Source of the DNA: Octopus sinensis
Lineage: Eukaryota
Assembly (NCBI RefSeq): GCF_006345805.1
Contig: NC_042997.1
Location: 61,814,001-61,878,000 of the forward strand
Direction of reading: 5' to 3'
Length of the DNA stretch: 64,000 nt
Shown here: in pieces, positions 4,187 through 47,070 of the stretch
Layout: every line of letters starts with the position of its first letter
Position numbering within the stretch: the stretch's first letter is position 1
The notes under the pieces: generated by a model
Database searches by the model: none
Seen by the model: the letters and a program-made list of their open reading frames with translations, nothing else
What the model was told of the DNA's origin: nothing
Position numbers and translations under genes: made by a program

Positions 4187-4915
4187 TTCTCTGAAGACAA
4201 AGAGTGCAGTCGAGAAAAGATAGGAGGTCCCTTAGTCATGATGAAATGTCTTGTGGAATGAGCTGGATTTGACAGATGAAATGACAAATTGGTCAACTCT
4301 GGAAATGAAGTGAGTAACTGGTGTTAAGAGTCATGTGAAGCAGCCACAAAGAAAGAAGAGCTCACAACAGGAACAGAAGAATCCTTTCCAGAGACAATGA
4401 GTGAGGTAGTATCATCAAGAAGCTGGCGTCCTCTAATGTCCACAAGGAGAGAATAGTGATGTAAGAAGTCAGCTCCAAGGATGGGGTAGGGCAGGTTCGC
4501 AATGACAAAGATCCACTTGAAATCCCTACAAAGTGACAAATCAAGGATAAGAGAGATTTGTCCATAGGTTTTAATGGCAGTGATTCACCATGTAAAGAGA
4601 GATGTTGGAAAGACCAGGATTAGTGGAAGTAAGCCTTCAAGGCCAGACACGCACACTGGCTCCCATGTCCATCATAAAAGACTTTGAAATAGCATCTCGG
4701 ATAAAAAATGGTAAGGTGAATCAGTGGGGGAGACAAGTGTCGTGCCCAGTGCCTCCCAGCCTAGTTTCCCTGAGAAGAGTAAGAGTAGGGTAGTGTACAC
4801 TTTTCAGCCTGGTCCTTGAATTTCCTATGATACCAGCAAGTAGGAGCAGAAAGTGTGCATCCGCATGAGAAAGAGTGACATCTGATCCTCCCTGTAGAAT
4901 AATTCCATGAAGAAG
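4187..4915 (-). mobile_element. Ty3/Gypsy LTR retrotransposon relic (CsRn1-like), gag end, protease and start of pol
   Basis: CWYHRKFKDQAEKCTLPY (C-x2-H-x9-C-x3-[C>Y]) ending SQGN*. Protease-like FFIRD...MMDMGASV and FKWIFVIANLPYPILGADFLHHYSLLVDIRGRQLLD follow, then LLTSFPELT...HFIMTKGPPIFSR. Frameshifts and stops are present. Confidence 0.85.
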
Positions 4916-4920
4916 AACAG

Positions 4921-6540
4921 TCTTGGTCTTTCGTCATTGCCTCTGTGAGGCCCAAAGTGTCACCGGCCCGGGTATCACAACTACAATATCCATTTGATGT
5001 ACTTGACTCAATAGGTCTCCTCAAGCACAGCAGGCCGCCCAACAATCCAAGGTTAGCATAGCAGGCCGTCCTGCGAGCCATGAACTCACTTCATTTGTCA
5101 GGTCTTCGCAGTCATACATATCTCCAGAGGTCTCAGTCTTTCGTCATAGCCTCTGTGAGGCCCAACGTTCAAAGGTCATGCTTGACCACCTCATCCCATG
5201 TCTTCCTGGGCATACCTCTACCCCAGATTCCTTCAACAGTTTGGGAGTGGCACTTTTTCATACATCTCTCCTCATCCTCCATAATACATGACCATACCAA
5301 CGCAAATGTCTCTCCTGCACGCCACATCCGATGCTTCTTATGTCCAACATTTCTCTCAGGGTGCTTACACTCTGTTGTGCATGCACATTGACATTACACA
5401 TCCTGCTAGCTTAATTTCTTTCGAGACTATGCATGTCCTCCGCAGTCATGGCCCATGTTTCACTGCTGTGAAGCATGGCAGTTCGCACACATGCATCGTA
5501 CAGTCTATCTTTCACTCTGAGTGAGAGACCCTTTGTCGCCAGTAGGGGAAGAAGCTTTCTAAACTTTGCCCAGGCTATTCTTATTCTAGTGGTAACACTC
5601 TCTGAGCATCCACCCCAACTACTAACTTTGTCACCTAGGTAGTGGAAGCTATCAACTACTTCTAGTTTCTCTCCCTCGAGTGTGATGGAATCTGTTTTCT
5701 GAGCATCTGTGGTGTGTATTGCCCCTGTGTATCTGTCGCACACAAAAGTTATTTTCTAGGTTAATTTTCCTTTGATGTTGCTGCACTTCATGTGTCCATA
5801 GCTTACACTGGGTACATCTTATGGAGTTTCTGCCTACACCTTTTCTGCAGATCGAGCAGGGCCACCTACCTAAGGGGCTGTGTGATGAGTTTGTCTTCCT
5901 ACTTGAACTTTGGTCTTTGCTACATTGACTCTAAGGCCCTTTGATTCTAAACCTAGCTTCCACACACAAAATTTATTTTCTAGTTCCGGTAGTGATTCTA
6001 CTATGAGGGCCAGGTCATCAGCATAGAGGAGCTCCCAGGGGCAGCCCGTCTTGAGTTCCTCTGTTATTGCCTGGAGGACTATGATGAATAAAATGGGACT
6101 GAGGGCTGAACCTTGGTGGACGCCTACTTCTACCCGAAATTCTTCGCTATACTCATTGCCAATCCTAACCTTACTAATGGCTTCTCTGTAAAGGGCCTGT
6201 ACAGCCCTTATTAACCATTTGTCAATCTCCAGTTTCCACATCGCGCACCAGATAAGGGATTGGGGGACCCTGTCAAAGGCTTTCTCCAAGTCCACAAAAG
6301 CTAAGTATTGGGGTTTATCTTTAGCTAGGTATTTCTCCTGCAGTTGTCGAACCAGGAATATGGCATCAGTGGTGCTTCTACCTGGCACAAAACCGAACTG
6401 CATCTCGTCTAAGCAGACTCTCTCCCTGATGAGATTGGCTATGACCTTCATCACCTGATCCAGCAGTTTGATACCCATGTAGTTATTTCTATCTAGAGCT
6501 TCACCTTTACCCTTGTAGCAATTGACTATGATGCTGCTAC
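4921..6540 (-). mobile_element. RTE-clade LINE fragment (RT domain to C-terminus), 5'-truncated and decayed
   Basis: QFGFVPGRSTTDAIF, FVDLEKAFDRV, GVHQGSALSP, LLYADDLAL and FHYLG motifs. It is collinear with the 42848-46238 copy. Confidence 0.95.
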
Positions 6541-6825
6541 AGTCCTTTCAATTTACACTCAATGCAAATTACATATAATAAAATAATTTTGCATTTTTAA
6601 AGATTTTGAGTGAAATATCTTCAGGGCAAAAAGGACATTCGGAACTTATTTGTGAATCAGTTCAGGTACTCCAGAATCTGTTGGAGTACCTGAACTGATT
6701 CACATGTAAATTCCGAATGTCTTTTTTGCCCTGAAGATATTTCACTCAAAATCTTTAAAAATGCACAATTATTTTATTATATATATTTTGTAATTTGTAA
6801 TGAGTGTAAATTGAAAGGGTTGTAG
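6537..6825. repeat. Long imperfect inverted repeat 1 (arms about 135-140 bp, 8-nt loop)
   Basis: Centre GTACTCCA-gaatctgt-TGGAGTAC. The arms pair out to CCTTTCAATTTACACTCA / TGAGTGTAAATTGAAAGG. Confidence 0.95.
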
Positions 6826-9759: not shown

Positions 9760-10128
9760 TCAAGCCGGTACCAAATGTTTAAGCTCATTACCGGTAAGTT
9801 TCAGGATAAACGAGTACCGACAATCTGTGGGCATTTGTAAATAAGCGACTTTACTCGCTCTACACCGCTGAGACTTACACAGAAAGCAAGTCCCCTGCAA
9901 CGGGGAAGCGCTCTCTTTTTGCGACGTCTCTACATTATATTGTGTTTCAATCAAACACCACAAGCAGTTATATTTTTTAACCTGACGGCTTGACAGTAGT
10001 TGTTTGCTGCAACACTTTGTGTGAAACGAAATTATTTTATTCAATAAGTCTCAAAGGTATAGCTGTTTATAGATTGATAGTTGGAAAGCAGCGTGAGTGT
10101 GTGTGACCTTGACACACACTCACAAAAT
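9760..10128 (+). promoter_or_regulatory. Probable promoter/5'UTR of the kinase gene
   Basis: Repeat-free stretch, visibly richer in CpG than the CpG-depleted surroundings, directly upstream of the ATG. The TSS is not determinable. Confidence 0.5.
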
Positions 10129-10183
10129 ATGGCTGATAAATGGCCCAACACGAAGGATGCTTTTGAGCTGAGAGATGTTATCG
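10129..10183 (+). CDS. First coding exon of an OSR1/SPAK (OXSR1/STK39, Drosophila fray)-like Ste20 kinase
   Basis: ATG at 10129 reads MADKWPNTKDAFELRDVI-G, then a canonical donor G|GTAAGT at 10184 (phase 1). It resembles the fray/OSR1 N-terminus (WPNSKDDYELRDVIG / WSINRDDYELQEVIG, recalled) leading into the Gly-rich loop. Exon 2 was not found in the window. Confidence 0.85.
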
Positions 10184-12564
10184 GTAAGTCCTTAACTACC
10201 TTTCATATTTTTCTTTCTACTCTACAAACCTCCTTTTCTCTATGTATCTACATATCTATGGATTTCTTTAACACAATTTTACTTAGATTATCCTCACCAG
10301 TAAAATACAGAAAGCTGTCATATATATCTCTCACCACTCTTGTATTAATATGGAAAAAAAAAATTAACTGTTTCACTAGTTAGGCGTTATGTGAATTGAG
10401 TTATTAGCTTTACTTTCTTTGTATATTTATCAGCAAACATATATGTTTTACTCATTTTCGTTGCTAATTTCATAATCATATACATTGATTATCTTTTTCC
10501 TGTTTTAATTGCTCTATCAGTGAGTTTGTTACCAGTGAAATACTGAACATGCTCCTATACTGAAACTAATGTGCAAGTAAACAGTTCTGTAGTATTCTGA
10601 AATTAACCCCTATGATAGAGACGAGTAATAGTTTTTAACGTACACTGTTTCACATACTCATGGATGGACACTAATATTTCTACGGAATATCTACAATATA
10701 CTATGTCTGTGTATAATTTGTGAGAAATCAATAGTTATGCGATATGTATGAGAAATAATCGCTGAGATATTGTACATTTTATAAATTGTCTTTCATGGAT
10801 ATTACTGAAAAGAAATAGAATAACACAATGTCTAATCATTATACAGACACGCGCGTAGATATATATTTACACTGACACCTGCACACACGAACACAGACAA
10901 TTCACAAACTCATGCACACGAGTACATCGGCACAAAATTGTCAATATTATTACAACACAAATAAGGAATCGATTTGCAAAGCAACTTCGATCTAAATTGA
11001 AGGAAAAGCTTGCTTTTTGAACCTTATTAAACACTATACTTACATATATACATACATACAGGGAGGGAGAGAGAGACTTATATATCTTAACATCGGCGCA
11101 AGGCTATACATGTCAGGTTGATGTTGGCAATTAAATCAATCACTGAACTTGATTTATATGTCTTCTTTTGCAACGGCTATATAAACACTTTATTAAAACC
11201 TTCATAAACACAGTCCATTATTCACACGTCTTTGGGTTATATATATATATATATATATATATAAATTTCGCTTTAAGTCTCGTAGGTGATCCACCAAAAA
11301 GTATGGATCAGTTTCTTATGTTTGCATCTATTAAACTAAACCCTGACTTTGTAATCTACTAATCTTTTTTCGTGTACATTACTATTTTGACTACGATTTT
11401 CCTCCCTTTTTCTCGTTATATTTTTGGAATCCTTTCTCATAAGGGTGTACTAATGATTGTCTTTTATCGCTATTTCTACTTTTATGTTTTTGTCTTCTTT
11501 GTTTCCCATTTAATGATTTCGCTACCAACATGTTCTTAGGTGGAAGACTTAATCCGTTGTCCAGTTTGACTCTCACCGTTTGATCTTTGTGTGTGTCTTT
11601 TTATCAGAGCCCGTCCTCATGCAAGCACTCACCTCAGATCTCTGATCTGTTAACTTCCTCCCATCAGTCACAGTGGTCCTGAAAAGGATTATGATCGCTT
11701 CCCTTAGTCTCTTTACTGAACCACTCTGAAAAAATAAAACAATATAAAAAACAACAAAATTGAGGTTATGTTAGAGAAATGGATATTTTCATTAGTACTT
11801 CGTATATTGTTTAGGGAAATGAACATTGTGTTCTGTGGCGTTCATCCTTTTCCCTACTTTCCGTAAGTGGAAAGCAGTTCCTATTGATGAACATAAAAGA
11901 CAGAACTTAATGTCAATAGAAATATTGGTGCACTCGAAACGCAAAGACGGACGACGATTCTGTCAGCTCGCCGCCTTAATTTTGGCATAAGGGCAGCAAT
12001 TTCGAGGGAGGAATTGAGTCGATTGTATTGACTACAGTGCTTCACCGGTGCCTACTTTATTAATTCCGAAAGGATGAGAGGCATTTGAACTCATAAGAGG
12101 TATTTGAACTCATAACGTAAAGACGGACTAAATGTCTCTATGTATTTCCCCTGGCGCGCTAACGATTCTGCCAACTTAGAGCCTTAAGTGTCAATAGAAA
12201 TATTAAGAAGCTTTAGTAATTAACGTAAATTTTGTATTTATTTGTGAAAAAAAAACAACTTTTTTTTAATACCGCTTTAAAAAAGTCTGCATTATTTTAG
12301 CATTAAATTCAGAACTAGATAAGTAAATTGAAAAAAAAAAAAAAAATCAGACTAATTAGGATCAAAGGATTTACAGCTGCCGTGTGTGTCTGTGTATAGT
12401 TTGCATTTGTTATTAAACCTTAATCCATAATAAACTGAAACAGCTTTTTAAATTTTCAGTAAGTAGAACAAGATAATGTTTCTGAATACAAACAATATAT
12501 TTGATACCTTTACAAATGCTAATAATATATATATATAAATACAAAATGGGACAAGAACGCAAAA

Positions 12565-32130: not shown

Positions 32131-34013
32131 CCCCTCTCTCATGCTTCAGTTTCTGATTTCCTTCTTTATCTCCCCACTTACTGCTCCACTTTCTCTTCAT
32201 TTATTGTCATATCTACCCCTTTATCACTTCTATTGTCTTTTTCACTGGTTTATATGTCTTTTGTTGAGGTATTTCTGGCAGTGTTGCTATGGTAAATATG
32301 TTTGAAATCATCTGCTCTGATTGAATAATTAGTTTGTTGTTGATTAATTGATGCTTGAAGACATGTTGGTGTTAGTGAGGTTGAATAACTTAGTTTACTG
32401 GCAGATGTTTGTAGTCTGTTGGCTTGTGCATCTAATATCATCATTGTTGTGTTTTCATCCACTTTTTCATGCTTGCATGAGTTGGATGGAATTTTGTTGA
32501 GGTGGAATTTCTAACCTGGATGCCCTTCCTTCCTGTCAGCTTGATTCTAAGCATGGTAATATTTCTTCATGACTAAGCAAGTTTCCATGGAAGGTTGGAA
32601 ATAGAGAACACTACTTGCATAATAGTGACATTTGTTTACAGCTATCATGTGATGTCAAAGCAAGGAGACAGTAGCACATGCATGCACACAAGCACACACA
32701 TACACGCCAGTCATCTTTCATTTTCACCCACAAGGCCTTAGTCCAAGGCTATTGTAGAAAACACTTGGCCAAGATTTCATGCAGTGAGATTGAATCCAGA
32801 ACTATGTGATTGGGAAACAAACTTCTTAACCACACTGCCATGCCTGCACCTAAAATGTATATATATATATATATATATCTGTTTGTGTGGCCTAGTGGCT
32901 AGGGTGTTGCAAGATCATGGTTTTGATTCCTGGACTGGGTGGTGTGTTATGTTCTTGAGCAAAACACTTCATCTCACATTGCTCTGTGATCTCTTCGACA
33001 GTCCATATGAGCATGGAAAACTGGATGTTAAAATGGTGATGATGTCTTCCAGATATTGCTCACTAAGATTTCGTAAATTACCTGGCAATTTTTGCACTCA
33101 ATTGCTGCTATAATTAATTGTCAGTCGACTAGAATTAGCAGCTCAAACTCCTTCCTTGAAATCACTGTGTTAAAAGTTGCTCATTCTTTGAAAACATCAT
33201 TGATGATGTTTTGTGCATAAATGTACTAAGTTGTCTGTGACAGTAATTTTTTTTTGTTTTTTGCACATTTTACTTAATCAATCAATATAAATGGACGGAG
33301 ATGGATAGAGTTTATTGTTCTTAATTAGTTGCAACCATTGTGCTGTGTCCTTAGAGAAGCACTTAAATCTTAATAGGTCAATTATCATTTTATGCCCATT
33401 TTACCATGAGTTAGATGGACTTCATAATGTCTCACCACCCACCTATGTTCTTCTTGTCACCCACTGTAATCCTTTGTCTTGCCACTTGTTATGATCCATT
33501 GTTACCTAGGATACAACAACAGAAAAAGAAAATCCTACTCCAATGTGGATATCTTACAGCACAAACAGTGAATATTGGATAGTATAGATAATCAGGGAAA
33601 TTGTTCATACACTGAAATGTGTATACATGAATCTAGACATGCACACATAAACATGGTTATGTGTTCATCAACATTCTACATACTGCATGTAACAGGCACA
33701 AGCATGGCTGTGTGGTAAGAAGCTTACTTTGCAACCACATGATTCTGGGTTCAGTCTCATTGCATGGTGCCCTGATCAGGTGTCTTCTACACTAGCCTTG
33801 GGCTGACCAAAGCCTTGTGAGTAGATTTTGTAGACAGAAATTAAAAGAAGCCAGTCATGTGTATGTATATAATCATCATCATCACTGAGCATCTGCTTTT
33901 CATTCTAGCATGGAATAGATGGTATGACTGGAACTGATAAACTGGAGAGTTGTACCAGGTTCCAGTCTGATTTATCTTCCTAGCACCAACCAATTCAAGA
34001 GTGTAGTGGGTGC

Positions 34014-34081
34014 CATTAGTAGCTGATGAGAATGTATTGTAGCTCTTTGCTCCGACATTTGAAACTCCAAGTACTATAATG
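34014..34081 (+). ncRNA. Candidate type I minimal hammerhead ribozyme
   Basis: Stem I CATTA(G)TAG / CTATAATG, core CTGATGA 34023-29, stem II GAATGT / ACATTT, GAAAC 34061-65, short stem III, and GTA cleavage triplet 34071-73. Confidence 0.6.
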
Positions 34082-34172
34082 TCAAACTGTCAGTGTTTGT
34101 TCTAAATTATAACATATATAAATAATCTTCTATTTAATATCGAGGTCTCATTCTTTTGTTGGTACTTTTTAT

Positions 34173-34203
<31 letters not shown>

Positions 34204-36669
34204 TTGTGTGTTGTCTATATATGTTTGTGTATATATACCTGTGTATGTATGTATATATGTGTGTGTATGTATGTGTGTGTTATGTTTGTGTGTCTGTCCT
34301 TGTCCCCCACCATTGCTTGATCACCGATGGTGATGTGTTTATGTCCCTGTAACTTACAGAGAATAAGTCCTGGGCTCGATTTGTTTGAGTAAAGGCAGTA
34401 CTCCAGATGGACGCAGTCAAATGACTGAAACAAGTAAAAGAATAAAAGAATATATATACATTTGTGTGTGTATATATTTATATATATAACCTATGCCATA
34501 TTAATTTAGTATTAGAATCCTTCAAGTTGTATAAAAATAGTTATTGTCTGCATCATTTGAAATAAATAAATTCTGCATAAGGTGTAAAAGATAAAAATAA
34601 TTTGTATGGTGTTAGTAACAAAATATTTTTAAGAAATAGAACTTTTATCATCAGTCTTAAATTTATTTTCACTAGTGTAGTTGTGTGTGTGTCTGATTGT
34701 GTGTCCCCCTTGTACCCCAATGCTTTAGAACCTGTATTGGTGAGTTTATGTCCATGTAACCTAAATGGCCTGGGAAAAGTACTTGACTTAATAAAGAAAA
34801 TAAGCCTTGTTGTCAATTTGTTTGACTAAATTCCTTTGAGGCTGTGTCCCAACATGGCCATGGTCAAATTACCTTGATCAACAGGTAAAAGACACCATTT
34901 CTCTTTGAAACTTTGCAACTTCTCAAGTGTTCTAAATCCCACTATCTTATTAACCCTTTCATTACCAAATTCCTTTTAAAATCCACAGACTTTGTTTTAA
35001 TTAATCCTTGTAATAATGAAGAATTTAGTAAAATAACTTCACCATTAATAAACTGGAGTTTGGAAAATAAGTTAGTATGAAATGTTTATGGAAGTTTTTA
35101 ACTGAGTTCACTTCAAACTAGTATGTTTGTATCATAGATCTATGGGTGGTCTTGGACAGTTAGGTATCAAAATGCTCAAGTGGGAACTACTTGATATTTA
35201 TGATACTTAATTTTGGGTTTTATTATCTGGGTTCAAACTTTGCTTATTATTCTTTCTGAGTCAATAAGAACAACACCAGTAATCAATGCCAAGATACTTT
35301 ACTTGATTGTGGAAAGCTGCATACATTGCTTTTACAAATAAATCCTTGTATTTAGGCCAAAGAAACCATGATGCTTCCATACAGTGGTTTACTTAAGTGA
35401 ATGGTGCAAAATATACTTTACAGTAACACTTTATTAATGTTTCTTTGAGAATTATTAGACCAAATAAAGAATGCTGCATAATTTTCTGCCAGTGATAAAC
35501 AATTTATAAACCACATAATTCAATATATTTAATGATGACAGTGTGTTTGAAAATCTTAGAATTTTTCAACCAATTTCAACATTTACCCTAAGTACGACTG
35601 GTAACAATATCAGTGAACAAACAATTGGTTTCATGTACTCCTGTGCATGCTATTTGATCATGCTATTTGATTGATTGTCAGACCAAACAGAAGTTATATT
35701 GTTGTAGTTTATAAGTCAAGTAATCTGATAGTTCAATCACCTCATTGTTTTGTATTTAACTTAGACACATAATCCATCATTACCTTTATTCAGTGCTATT
35801 GTTCTGTTGTGAATCTGTGTATTTCTTTCTGGGTTTGTTTGATTTCTACCTCACTTTTTCTTTTCATTTTGAACTACATTGGTTCTTAATTAAAGTCATT
35901 TACTCTACTATCAAAGTGTGGCTATCTCTGAGGATAGATTTCTTATTTCTCTTTTAACTATTTTTGTATGATCTGACCTAATAACATAAAACATTTAAGT
36001 ACCAGTTTCTGAAAGCTTCTTGGGATTAATTTTTTTTGTAACAGGATTCCTTATATTTTCTCATATTGCTCTACAGAAGCCCCAGTGTTTTTGTTTTAAA
36101 AGGAAGATCTGTTCAGTTTCCTAAAAAAAAATTTTTTTTTTTTTGAGATTTGAAAAATTTTTTGGTAGGATTTTAAATAAAAACATTTCTATATCTTGTA
36201 AAATACTTTTCCTTTTCAGTTTAGAAGCATTGATTGGCTTTGTCTATATAAGGTCACATATAATTTGGGATAATTGTAGTGTCTATTTTATTAGTTAACT
36301 TGACTAAGGATAACAGAATTGTGTCCTGGTTTAAGTCATTGCAAGAAGAAAAAGTTGAACTTACTACTACCTCTGAGTTGGCATTGCATCTCTTTAGCCA
36401 CTTGATCAATATAATGTAAAGTAAGCTGTGTAACTCTGACATGAATTGGTAGATGGCTATGTGTTTGACTTATTTATATAAACAGAAACCATAAATGTAT
36501 ATCTGAAAGGCATAGACTTAGCTTTATTTTTTATTTTTATCCAGAAAATATGTGATAAATTTGCCTTTGGTGAGGGTACTTATCTGTTGGTGATAATGTC
36601 ATCCTCCAACGATCTTTCCTTCATCTAAGTGATGGGAGAAAAGCAGATTGAAATATTTTTCTCATAGCT

Positions 36670-42813: not shown

Positions 42814-42847
<34 letters not shown>

Positions 42848-42848
<1 letters not shown>

Positions 42849-45800
42849 CATCATCATCATCATCATTTAGCGTCCGTTTTCCATGCTAGCATGGGTTGGA
42901 CGGTTCTACTGGGGTCTGTGAAGCCAGAAGGCTTCATCAGGCCCAGTCAAATCTGGCAGTGTTTCTACGGCTGGATGCCCTTCCTAACGCCAACCACTCC
43001 GTGAGTGTAGTGGGTGCTTTTTACGTGCCACCCGCACTGGTGCCAGACAGAGCTGGCAAACGGCCACGAACGGATGGTGCTTTTTATGTGCCACCGCACG
43101 AGGGCCAGGCGAGGCTGGCAACGGACACGAAACGGGGCGGTGCTGGCAACGGTCGCGAAACGGAAAGTTCTCTTACATGCCACCGGCACTGGTAACACAT
43201 CTGCAATTTCCATTGATCGATTTCCATTGATCGATTTCGATTCTGATCCTCACTTGCCTCAATGGGTCTTCACAAGCAGAGTTTCGACATGCCACCGGCA
43301 CTGGTAGCACATCCGCAATTTCCATTGATCGATTTCGATTCTGATCCTCACTTGCCTCAACACGTCTTCACAAGTAGAGTTTTGTGTCCCAAGAAGGGAA
43401 GGTATGCATACGTAGGCTGGCTCCATCCCATGTAGAAGGCCACGGGTTGTGGACTCACTTGTCCTGCCGAGTCTTCTCGCGCACAGCACACTTCCAGAGG
43501 TCTCGGTCTCTAGTCATTTCCTCAGTGAGACCTAAAGTTCGAAGGTCGTGCTTCACCACCTCGTCCCAGGTTTTCCTGGGTCTGCCTCTTCCACAGGTTC
43601 CCTCAACCGCTAGGTGTGGCACTTTTTCACACAACTATCTTCATCCATTCTCGCCACATGACCATACCAGCGCAAACGTCTCTCTTGCACACCACAACTG
43701 ATGCTTCTTAGGTCCAGCTTTTCTCTCAAGGTACTTACACTCTGCCGAGTGTGAGTACCGGCATTACACATCCATCGGAGCATACTGGCTTCATTTCTAG
43801 CGAGCTTACGCATATCCTCAGCAGTCACGGCCCATGTTTCACTGCCATGTAGCATGGCTGTTCGTACACACGCATCATACAGTCTGCCTTTCACTCTGTG
43901 CGAGAGGCCTTTTGTCACCAGCAGAGGTAAGAGCTCTCTGAACTTTGCCCAAGCTATTCTTACTCTAGCAGTTACACTTTCAGCACACCCACCCCCGCTG
44001 CTGACTTGGTCACCTAGGTAACGGAAACTATCAACTATTTCTAGTTTTTCTCCCTGGAAAGTGACGGAAGTTGGTCTCAGAGCATTTTCAGTGTTTATTG
44101 TTCCTGAGCATCTGCCACATAAAAACCATCTTCCTAGTTAGCCTTCCTTTGACATTGCTGCATCTCTTATGTGTCCATAGCTTACACTTGGTGCATCTTA
44201 TAGAGTTTCTACCTACACCTTTTCTACAGATCGAGCAGGCCATCTACCTGAAGGTGTTTGTGATTTGTCTACCTTCCTACTGATTACGACTTTGGTTTTA
44301 GCTAGATTGACTCTGAGGCCCTTCGATTCTAATCCTTGTTTCCACACCTGAAACTTCTCCTCCAGTTCTGATAGCGACTCAGCAATTAGAGCAAGGTCAT
44401 CAGCATAGAGGAGCTCCCAAGGGCATCCTGTCTTGAATTCCTCCGTTATTGCCTGGAGGACTATGATAAATAGGAGGGGGCTGAGTACTGAGCCTTGGTG
44501 GACCCCTACCTCTACCCGGAATTCTTCACTGTACTCATTTCCAACCCTCACCCTACTAGCGGCGTCCCTATACATGGCCCGCACAGCTCTCACTAACCAT
44601 TCATCATCCCTAGTTTTCTCATTGCCCACCAGATAAGGGATCGGGGGACCCTGTCGAAGGCTTTCTCCATGTCAACAAAAGCCAGGTACAGGGGCTTATC
44701 TTTGGCTAGGTATTTCTCCTGCAGCTGCCTTACCAGGAATATAGCATCAGTAGTACTTTTCCCTGGCACAAACCCAAACTGCATCTCATCTAAACTAACT
44801 CTCTCTCTAATTAGTTGGGCTATGACCCTCTCCGTAACCTTCATCACCTGGTCCAACAGCTTGATACCTCTGTAGTTATTTGTATCTAGGGCATCACCTT
44901 TACCTTTGTAGCAGTTGACTATTATACTGCTACACCAGTCATTGGGTATGACCCCTTTGTGTATCACCTGATTAACTATATGGGTGACTAGGCTATAGCC
45001 GACACTACCAGACATTTTGAGCATCTCTGCAGTGATTCCTGATGGGCCTGGGGCTTTCCCTGTCTTCATGCTTCTAATTGCCTTAGCTACCACAGAACTA
45101 TCAACTCGGATAGCTGGTCCCTCTGTTGGGTCAACATTCGGCAGACTCTCTTTATCCCATTCATTTTCTTCATTCAGCAACCTTTCATAGTGGCATCTCC
45201 AAACCTCTCTCTTCGCATCCTCATTTAGCGCAAGTGAACCATCTTCCATGCGAACACACTTCTCTCCTACCACATCACGATTCTCTCTCAAACACTGTCT
45301 TGCAACACGAAACACCTCCAGTCTTTGGTCCTCACGGCGCAGAACATTGGCAAATTTTTTCTTATCTGCTTCCCCTCTGGCTAAATAAACCTGTCTCCTA
45401 GCTTCTCTTTTGGCAGTCTGATACAATTCCCTGCTACCCCCATTTTTCCAGACCTTCCAAGCCTGTCTCTTTTCTCTAATAGCCCTGTCTACAATATTGT
45501 TCCACCACCACGTTATTCTAGGTCGAGAGGGGACTTTGCACCAGCCACAGATCTGGTCAGTGGCTCTCAGCAGGTTGTCCCTTAGAAACGTCCAGCTGTC
45601 TTCTACCCCCTGTGATGCTCTATCCCCTTCTACTTCGTCAGAGGCTTCAAGTAATATGTCCCTAAATCTCTGTCCATTTGCAGGATCTTTAAGCTTCCAG
45701 ATCCTTCTTCTCCATATTTGTCGTCTTCTGGTTGTCCTCCTAGTCCTGATCCTAAAGTCACTAACTACCAGTCTATGTTGTGGGGTACATTCTTCACCTG

Positions 45801-46238
45801 GGAAGGTTTTGGCATTTATAAGCAGCCATCTCTCCCTTTGCCTTGTAAGGATGTAGTCAATTTGGCTGGTATGTTGGCCCGATTGGTAAGTGACTAGGTG
45901 GCTGGTAGGTTTCCTGAAGTTAGTGTTGCAAATCATAAGATTATTTGCATCGCAGAACTCCAGCAGCCTGGTTCCCTCCTCGTTGCGGGAGCCATAGCCA
46001 TAGCCTCCATGTACGCCATGGAAGCCCCCAGCATGTCGTCCAACGTGACCATTGAAGTCACCAGCCACAAAGATAAGGTCTCTGTCGTTCGCCAATGAGG
46101 TAGTCTGCAGTAGAGTGTCATAGAATCGGTCTTTCTGTCCATCGGGTAGCCCCGACTGAGGAGCATAGGCTGATATAATGGTTGCTAAACTATGATGAAG
46201 CACTAATCTAATCTTAAGTATTCTGTCACTTACTCTGA
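42848..46238 (-). mobile_element. Young RTE-clade LINE (APE endonuclease + RT + PHD-like finger), 5'-truncated, inserted in (TA)n
   Basis: APE motifs SAYAPQ, AGDFNGHVG, SQIDYIL, QHRLV. RT motifs NYRGIKLL, DMEKAFDRV, GVHQGSVLSP, YADDL, FRYLG. Stop at 43455-43457, then a 600-bp 3'UTR and (GAT)n tail, with TA repeats on both sides. Confidence 0.97.
43455..46238 (-). pseudogene. RTE ORF broken by four small frameshifts
   Basis: Segments join by shifts near 44605, 44239, 44121 and 43612. The corrected reading has no internal stop that I could see. Confidence 0.85.
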
Positions 46239-46283
46239 TTATATATATATATATATATATCTATCTATATATATATTTATATA

Positions 46284-46473
46284 GTGCAGGTGGCACGTAA
46301 AAAGCACCCACTACACTCACGGAGTGGTTGGCGTTAGGAAGGGCATCCAGCTGTAGAAACATTGCCAGATAAGACCGGAGCCTGGTGCAGCCTTCTGGCT
46401 TCCCAGATCCCCGGTCGAACCGTCCAACCCATGCTAGCATGGAGAACGGACGTTAAACGATGATGATAATGAT
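46284..46473 (+). mobile_element. Short RTE 3'-end copy, inverted relative to the adjacent LINE
   Basis: Reverse-complement match to about 42850-43038, ending GGACGTTAAACGATGATGAT, embedded in (TA)n. Confidence 0.9.
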
Positions 46474-47070
46474 ATATATATATATATATATATATCTATA
46501 TCTGTGTGTTAGTGGGTGTAGTCAAAGAGAATTTGGGAAGTCAAATTATTCTGAGATGCCATCTGCAAATAGTATCTGATATTTGGTTTTTTAATGATTA
46601 AAGGATTAAATATGCTATCATCTACTGAGCTATTATCATGTGTGTAGCATCTCAGATACACTACACTGTATAAACAAGTAGCCAATATTAAGTGTATCTG
46701 ATATTTTGAGTTGGTTTTATATGACATGTTAGGTGCAAGCAAAACAGTAGTCAAAAAGCTCTTGACAGCTGCATAGTTCTGAGTTCAATTTCATTGCATG
46801 GTGCGTTAGACAAGCATCTTTTATTGTAACTTAGGATTGATCCAGTCACTGTCTTGTAGGTGGAATTTGGTACACAGAAACTGTGGAAGCCTTTCATACA
46901 CATTTGAGTAAGCGTGTGTGTGTTGTGTGTGTATGTTTATGTTGAAACTGGCATTATTTATGTTGTGGTCCTTTGTGTCCTATAACTTTAGCACTTTGGC
47001 ATATAAGAATGATAAAATAAGTACCAAATAAAAAAGAAAAAATACTGAGTTGAAGGCTGCACTTGAACTC

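What the first reader, a model, noticed from the sequence alone, without database searches (positions are those of the whole stretch)
34014..34081. Intronic, sense-strand candidate hammerhead ribozyme
Seen: all hammerhead core nucleotides occur in order. Stem I has 8 bp with one bulge, followed by CUGAUGA, a 6-bp stem II closed by G-U with a 19-nt loop, GAAAC, a weak 2-3 bp stem III and a GUA triplet. Known: minimal type I hammerheads with weak stem III are typical of Penelope-like elements and retrozymes and can act as dimers. Inference: it is on the kinase pre-mRNA strand, so an active copy could cut intron 1. It directly follows a truncated RTE-tail fragment and may mark an unannotated retrozyme-like family.
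Basis: partly seen in the sequence, partly recalled or inferred. Interest (0 to 1): 0.75.

Follow-up and report, generated by a model that had tools for sequence, protein, structure and literature searches.

The report
Decayed hammerhead of Hydra-clade Penelope retroelement
This is the worn-out tail of a common jumping gene lying in a kinase intron; it carries a real but likely dead self-cutting RNA motif, and its textbook-looking core likely arose by ordinary mutation from a family version that has an unusual C in place of a normally fixed U.

Summary
The hammerhead motif is present as described, on the sense strand of an 82-kb first intron of an OSR1/SPAK kinase gene. It is not a retrozyme and not tied to the neighbouring LINE tail. 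It is the 5'-truncated 3' end (pLTR) of an old Hydra-clade Penelope-like element (PLE); longer copies carry reverse transcriptase and a GIY-YIG endonuclease upstream. The family's majority core is CCGACGA (U4C), with G10.1-C11.1 and a palindromic stem III for dimer formation. This copy differs from the majority at 7 of 68 positions, 6 of them CpG transitions: one creates the canonical U4, others weaken the 10.1-11.1 pair and break the dimer palindrome (duplex -0.1 vs -7.8 kcal/mol). No partner copy lies in 214 kb, and copies decay neutrally. Cutting of the pre-mRNA is therefore unlikely. The only novelty is at family level: C4 is also near-fixed in a young sister family (2,393 matches), with covarying stems, and insertion ends show uncut templates. 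I found no report of U4C in PLEs, but one key paper was unreadable. This scan noted C4 Hydra hammerheads before, here and in another genome.

The parts
34011..34170 (+). 5'-truncated 3' end (pLTR plus tail) of an old Hydra-clade Penelope-like element (family A)
   Evidence: 39 other full matches at 83-88% among 40 scored of 882 candidates; upstream RT/GIY-YIG in longer copies
34014..34081 (+). Type I hammerhead motif, decayed copy
34023..34029 (+). Core CTGATGA; T34024 (U4) and T34027 (N7) are CpG transitions from family CCGACGA
34030..34060 (+). Stem II and loop; T34060 turns the family G10.1-C11.1 into G.U (CpG transition)
34064..34072 (+). Stem III; family palindrome ACTC-C-GAGT broken by A34069 (CpG transition)
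34071..34073 (+). GUA triplet, predicted cut after 34073
   Evidence: hammerhead numbering from own knowledge
33862..34013 (-).
   Evidence: matches window 42842-43017; that element's frame has RVT_1 and Exo_endo_phos_2
33694..33871 (+). 5' half of a SINE-like interspersed repeat into whose internal microsatellite the LINE tail and PLE end are nested
   Evidence: 13 hit pairs in other loci have both halves under 200 nt apart
34244..34458 (+). 3' half of the same SINE-like repeat, after a (TA)n/(TG)n tract
10129..10183 (+). First coding exon of the host OSR1/SPAK-type kinase; intron 1 starts at 10184 and runs past the window end

Best explanation
The motif is the hammerhead in the 3' end of an old Hydra-clade Penelope-like retrotransposon, left as a solitary truncated copy in the first intron of an OSR1/SPAK kinase gene, where it has decayed and most likely does not cut. 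Shown: the repeat family, its link to RT and GIY-YIG frames, the family core CCGACGA, and the substitutions in this copy. Inferred: the element inserted by endonuclease-primed reverse transcription into a (TA)n tract from an RNA not cut at its hammerhead; in the live element two hammerheads of a tandem transcript would pair through the ACUC-C-GAGU palindrome and cut slowly, probably helped by the element's protein; after insertion CpG deamination turned C4 into the canonical U4 but also weakened stem II and broke the dimer palindrome.
For: Family: 882 candidates, 40 scored, others 83-88% identical over window 34011-34170. Same-strand GIY-YIG frame roughly 0.8-1.1 kb upstream in L019, L040, L045, L053, L057, L059, L064; frame then family-A UTR collinear in L128 (RT core, residues 280-710 of the sister protein) and frame, UTR and motif in L129, L180-182, L184-187, L189. 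Sister family B has a 717-aa frame with RWK, DKT, CxCx5C, CxxC and CxH, the Hydra diagnostics of PMC8557442 section 11. Published Hydra hammerheads have the same 4-bp palindrome plus 1 nt; one reads actc-c-gagt-a exactly (File S2). Core: 27 of 35 pattern matches have C4; of 27 copies found through upstream or endonuclease sequence, 15 CG, 7 CA, 4 TG, 1 TA at positions 4-5, the two-sided signature of CpG decay. Window copy: 7 of 68 differences, 6 at CpG. Neutral decay: non-CpG core 21/392 changed vs flank 61/1061, p=0.90 (56 copies not selected by pattern). Stem III self-duplex -0.1 kcal/mol vs -7.8 (L070) and -7.4 (family B); no second motif of families A-D in 214 kb. Stem I pairing probability <=0.01 in context. 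Uncut templates: 1 of 60 family A 3' ends within 10 nt of the cut site (pattern and upstream/EN sets); 0 of 41 family B 3' ends before +31, and 19 of 29 pLTR-ORF junction copies read through the site, 1 of 29 starts at it. Minimal PLE hammerheads were inactive as monomers (PMC4209133) or needed the element's protein (PMC11167929).
Against: The copy has every canonical unpaired core base and a GUA triplet; a U-U at 10.1-11.1 can support cleavage (PMC3088659 section 8), so G.U there need not kill it. A heterodimer with an intact family copy is predicted at -4.1 kcal/mol, so cutting in trans is not excluded. Low stem I probability is also predicted for intact copies L070 and L074, so that measure does not single out this copy. 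RWK and DKT were seen only in sister family B; the family A copies fetched start downstream of them. No tree was built. No cleavage data exist.
Confidence: 0.85

Rival explanations
1. CpG decay restored a canonical core and this copy now cuts OSR1/SPAK intron 1 at a rate that matters (as monomer, in trans with another copy, or aided by protein).
For: Canonical CUGAUGA, GAAA, A-U and GUA are present, sense strand, 82-kb intron gives time. Heterodimer stem -4.1 kcal/mol.
Against: G.U at 10.1-11.1, broken palindrome, no cis partner in 214 kb; hammerhead is not the predicted fold; family decays neutrally.
Confidence: 0.06
2. It is a monomer of a non-LTR retrozyme family (non-coding tandem repeat spreading as circular RNA).
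For: Short, non-coding here, type I motif; a preprint argues that retrozymes derive from PLE pLTRs (10.64898/2026.07.22.740005).
Against: 0 of 30 loci with a direct tandem copy; 5' ends are ragged and longer copies run into RT/GIY-YIG; insertion ends do not sit at the cut site.
Confidence: 0.05
3. In these families the C4 motif is no longer a ribozyme at all; the fold is kept only as a binding or reverse-transcription-start signal.
For: No pile-up of ends at the cut site in families A and B; U4C lowers activity considerably in vitro (PMC3088659); cleavage was not needed for insertion in vitro; family B also has an extra U before G12.
Against: C3, G5, A6, G8, A9, GAAA, A15.1-U16.1, an NUH triplet and a dimer palindrome are kept across families A-D while stems change; U4C still allowed viroid infectivity. 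This rival concerns the family, and is compatible with the window copy being dead.
Confidence: 0.25
4. Chance match to a hammerhead descriptor.
For: No Rfam hit; fold z-score +0.94.
Against: 0.03-0.06 hits expected per window; the family majority is a better hammerhead in its stems and sits where published Hydra hammerheads sit.
Confidence: 0.01

Closest known systems
Hydra clade of Penelope-like elements, including Hydra-1_Obim (Craig et al. 2021, PMC8557442; seen: passages, section 11, supplement part 2 of 59 and search excerpts)
   Same: C-terminal GIY-YIG with CxCx5C linker and CxxC; 3' type I hammerhead with 4-bp palindromic stem III plus 1 nt; (TA)n targets; 5' truncation and inverted 5' copies; sister protein shares long motifs with the Hydra-1_Obim protein by eye.
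   Different: All 26 Hydra rows of File S2 have a ctga core (found with a descriptor, so biased); families A and B here have C4. The hammerhead sequence differs from that listed for Hydra-1_Obim, so these are other families. Family A has a long microsatellite-rich 3' UTR.
Minimal PLE hammerheads (Cervera and de la Pena 2014, PMC4209133; seen: parts 1-2 of 4 of the text)
   Same: pLTR location, short palindromic helix III, dimer requirement, mostly solitary truncated copies.
   Different: The core change reported in the parts read is U3-A8, not U4C; supplements not seen.
Poseidon PAc hammerhead (Frangieh et al. 2024, PMC11167929; seen: passages and second half of main text; author name recalled)
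   Same: Two 3' ends defining a tail downstream of the ribozyme; uncut RNA used as template.
   Different: Other PLE clade; activity was measured there, not here.
Natural U4C hammerhead of a viroid (as cited in Perreault et al. 2011, PMC3088659; seen: passages and section 8; the primary paper PMC147498 was not held)
   Same: Same core substitution; reduced in vitro activity, sufficient in vivo.
   Different: A rare viroid variant, against the majority state of whole retrotransposon families here.
Non-LTR retrozymes (PMC7229834, passages; preprint 10.64898/2026.07.22.740005, parts 1-2 of 5)
   Same: Type I hammerhead, dispersed monomers exist.
   Different: No tandem array, and the repeat belongs to a coding element.

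Membership tests
Type I hammerhead (this copy) | CUGANGA, GAAA, A15.1-U16.1 and NUH in order with stems I and II | tested here: met
Type I hammerhead (this copy) | Conserved G10.1-C11.1 pair | tested here: not met
   G.U at 34030/34060; family G-C in 41 of 56
Type I hammerhead (this copy) | Stable stem III, as monomer or through a palindromic dimer | tested here: not met
   self-duplex -0.1 kcal/mol vs -7.8 in intact L070; monomer pairing about 0.2
Type I hammerhead (this copy) | Match to an Rfam hammerhead model | tested here: not met
   none at E<=10; intact relatives in 5 loci also none at E<=1, so the test is insensitive here
Type I hammerhead (this copy) | Self-cleavage at N17 | not testable with these tools
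   needs an assay
Hydra-clade PLE | RT followed by C-terminal GIY-YIG, upstream of the pLTR on the same strand | tested here: met
   (tblastn against the family B frame; Pfam finds no family in that frame; domain labels read from motifs)
Hydra-clade PLE | CxCx5C linker and CxxC near the conserved E | tested here: met
   family A translations; definition
Hydra-clade PLE | N-terminal RWK and DKT motifs | tested here: inconclusive
   present in sister family B (about 55-80% identical segments); family A copies fetched begin at residue 280 or later
Hydra-clade PLE | 3' hammerhead with 4-bp palindromic stem III | tested here: met
Hydra-clade PLE | Canonical CUGANGA core in the family | tested here: not met
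   majority C4 in family A and B (98 of first 100 listed)
Hydra-clade PLE | 5' truncation, inverted 5' copies, tail with two 3' ends, microsatellite targets | tested here: met
   inverted copy next to the match in 6 of 30 loci; 3' ends cluster at +30-59 and +90-104; flanks
Hydra-clade PLE | Phylogenetic placement of the RT | not tested
   no tree built
Non-LTR retrozyme | Head-to-tail array of 150-450 nt units, each with a hammerhead | tested here: not met
   0 of 30 loci; no genome-wide array search
Non-LTR retrozyme | No coding capacity in the element | tested here: not met
Non-LTR retrozyme | Abundant circular RNA | not testable with these tools
   only contigs were available

The most novel reading that the evidence does not exclude
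Hydra-clade PLEs in this genome run on a C4 (CCGANGA) hammerhead that is a working but throttled, dimer- and protein-gated ribozyme, missed by CUGANGA descriptors; because C4 sits in a CpG, dead copies convert to the faster U4, so that some of the thousands of genomic copies (3 of 56 sampled are otherwise intact with U4) could become stronger self-cutters inside host introns than the element ever was.
Probability: 0.2. Interest if true: 0.65.

Novelty: new variant of a known kind. Interest (0 to 1): 0.3.

Why it matters
For this locus little: it is one decayed copy among many. At family level it matters modestly: a recently expanded, coding retrotransposon family with a near-fixed U4C core and covarying stems gives a ready test of why PLEs keep hammerheads that are not needed for insertion, and shows that descriptor searches for CUGANGA both miss live families and pick up dead copies whose canonical look is a product of CpG decay.

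Tried and rejected
Rfam scans of the window stretch and of five loci with relatives gave no hammerhead hit. Pfam named neither the endonuclease fragments nor the 717-aa frame; the Atlas look-up gave no result. Sequencing runs: no RNA holder listed; run X1 (RNA is a guess) has a contig over 33806-34091 that passes the predicted cut site by only 18 nt and so does not count as bridging; contigs cannot show ends. A loose genome pattern for other stem III palindromes gave 694 matches against 684 for its reversed control, so its count is no evidence; it only served as a lead to family D. Within family A, compensatory changes are almost absent (5 cells, all in stem II, over 20 pairs in 56 copies), as expected for dead copies of one master; the support comes from differences between families, read by eye, not from a scored covariation test. 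Family C is mostly U4 (C4 in 5 of 20) and family D is split (6 of 12) and shows no Hydra frame within 1.5 kb in 12 loci: these weaken any claim that C4 is general. A role of the LINE tail was rejected (antisense, not shared by paralogues). Papers not held: Lunse et al. (PMC5785218), PMC147498, PMC2271363.

Full report
Observation. The motif is at the stated place with the stated parts. It is the only hit of a type I descriptor in the window, against 0.03-0.06 hits per shuffled window in 100 shuffles. It is not the predicted fold of the stretch and no Rfam hammerhead model matches. The host gene is an OSR1/SPAK-type kinase on the + strand: a first coding exon at 10129-10183 joins in frame to an exon 82,064 nt downstream, outside the window, which matches human OSR1 at E=2e-14. 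Non-coding exons in between are not excluded. The genome has 2.7 Gb; that it is an octopus is my inference from the likeness to Hydra-1_Obim.

What the repeat is. Window 34011-34170 belongs to a dispersed family (882 candidates, 40 scored, others 83-88% identical). Copies share a 3' end, have ragged 5' ends, and 6 of 30 loci carry an inverted partial copy next to the match. Walking upstream led to a GIY-YIG-type frame on the same strand and, in L128, L129 and L131, to reverse-transcriptase sequence. A search with that endonuclease found a young sister family B with a 717-aa frame that carries RWK, DKT, CxCx5C, CxxC and CxH, the diagnostics given for the Hydra clade in PMC8557442 section 11. 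The supplement of that paper lists Hydra hammerheads with the same 4-bp palindromic stem III. So the window holds the last 160 nt of a Hydra-clade PLE. Locally it is nested: SINE-like 5' half, antisense LINE tail, PLE end, microsatellite, SINE-like 3' half. The LINE tail is an accidental neighbour.

The core is C4 in the family. Of 35 exact matches to a pattern free at positions 4 and 7, 26 read CCGACGA, 1 CCGATGA, 7 CTGACGA and 1 CTGATGA (reversed control 0). Among 27 copies found without using the core, positions 4-5 read CG 15, CA 7, TG 4, TA 1; CA can only come from an ancestral CpG. The window copy differs from the majority of 86 other copies at 7 of 68 motif positions, 6 of them CpG transitions: 34024 (gives U4), 34027, 34038, 34048, 34060 (G-C becomes G.U at 10.1-11.1) and 34069 (breaks the palindrome). 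Non-CpG core positions change as often as the flank (21/392 vs 61/1061, p=0.90; 32 pattern-selected copies and the window copy left out). Family B has 2,393 matches to its core pattern, 98 of the first 100 listed with C4. Families C and D are mixed (C4 in 5 of 20 and 6 of 12). Between families the three stems differ in sequence yet pair, and stem III stays palindromic (read by eye).

How it most likely works. In the live element, tandem pLTR-ORF-pLTR transcripts (as in L126) would let two motifs pair through stem III (predicted -7.4 to -7.8 kcal/mol). Cutting would be slow: U4C lowers activity considerably in vitro though it sufficed for a viroid (PMC3088659), minimal PLE motifs were inactive as monomers (PMC4209133), and a Poseidon hammerhead cut only with the element's protein and was not needed for insertion (PMC11167929). 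Genomic ends agree with uncut templates: 1 of 60 family A 3' ends lies within 10 nt of the cut site (the 30 copies from the tail-containing query are left out), 0 of 41 family B 3' ends lie before +31, and of 29 aligned junction copies (30 fetched of 46 matches; two are arms of one insertion) 19 read through the site and 1 starts at it. For the window copy the dimer stem is predicted at -0.1 kcal/mol and no second motif lies in the window plus 150 kb downstream. I put inactivity at about 0.85-0.9; trans cutting is the remaining route.

Novelty. PLE hammerheads, Hydra elements in octopus and decayed solitary copies are known. U4C as the majority state of PLE families was not found in print by my searches: 'hammerhead ribozyme'+'U4C' gave one paper, 'hammerhead'+'CCGANGA' none, 'hammerhead'+'octopus'+'Penelope' only Craig et al. 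as relevant, and a search with three C4 heptamers nothing relevant. Lunse et al. on PLE hammerhead variants could not be read, and most supplements were not seen; either may already show it. Earlier notes of this scan report C4 Hydra hammerheads in this genome and another; I had reached that reading before looking, and they are not independent proof.

Verdict. Real motif, ordinary origin, probably dead at this locus; a modest family-level variant worth one assay. Interest 0.3.

Noticed in passing
L121-L126; G000-wide: Young Hydra-clade PLE family B, near-identical copies, frames up to 717 aa, 2,393 core-pattern matches; its hammerhead has C4, a GUU triplet and an extra U between stem II and G12.
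   Followed up: partly
L148-L167: Older family C with a long stem II hammerhead, stem III ACAA-A-TTGT, mixed U4/C4; weak hits to a Hydra frame in 3 of 20 loci.
   Followed up: partly
L168-L179, L193, L194: Family D, compact hammerhead (6-bp stem I, 3-bp stem II, stem III ACCA-T-TGGT, GUC), C4 in 6 of 12, inverted pairs, no Hydra frame within 1.5 kb; parent element unknown.
   Followed up: partly
G000 (listing): Several further hammerhead families with canonical CUGA cores and ACCA-N-TGGT stem III, one resembling the published Hydra-1_Obim motif.
   Followed up: no
L129:4844-5074: An inverted pair of family B ends sits inside the 3' UTR of a family A copy, so B inserted after A.
   Followed up: no
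window 42842-46260 (-) and 4761-6547 (-): Two broken APE-RT LINE copies (RVT_1; Exo_endo_phos_2 in the first); the first has an inverted tail piece near 46304-46480.
   Followed up: partly
L005, L011, L012, L028, L065, L067, L075, L082, L087, L088: Inversion junctions of several family A copies fall just 5' of hammerhead stem I; may reflect selection by the search or a real fold-back hot spot.
   Followed up: no
window 9760-9800 (-)/(+): A donor-like GGTAAGT at about 9792 upstream of the kinase start region, possibly the end of an exon of a neighbouring or alternative transcript.
   Followed up: no
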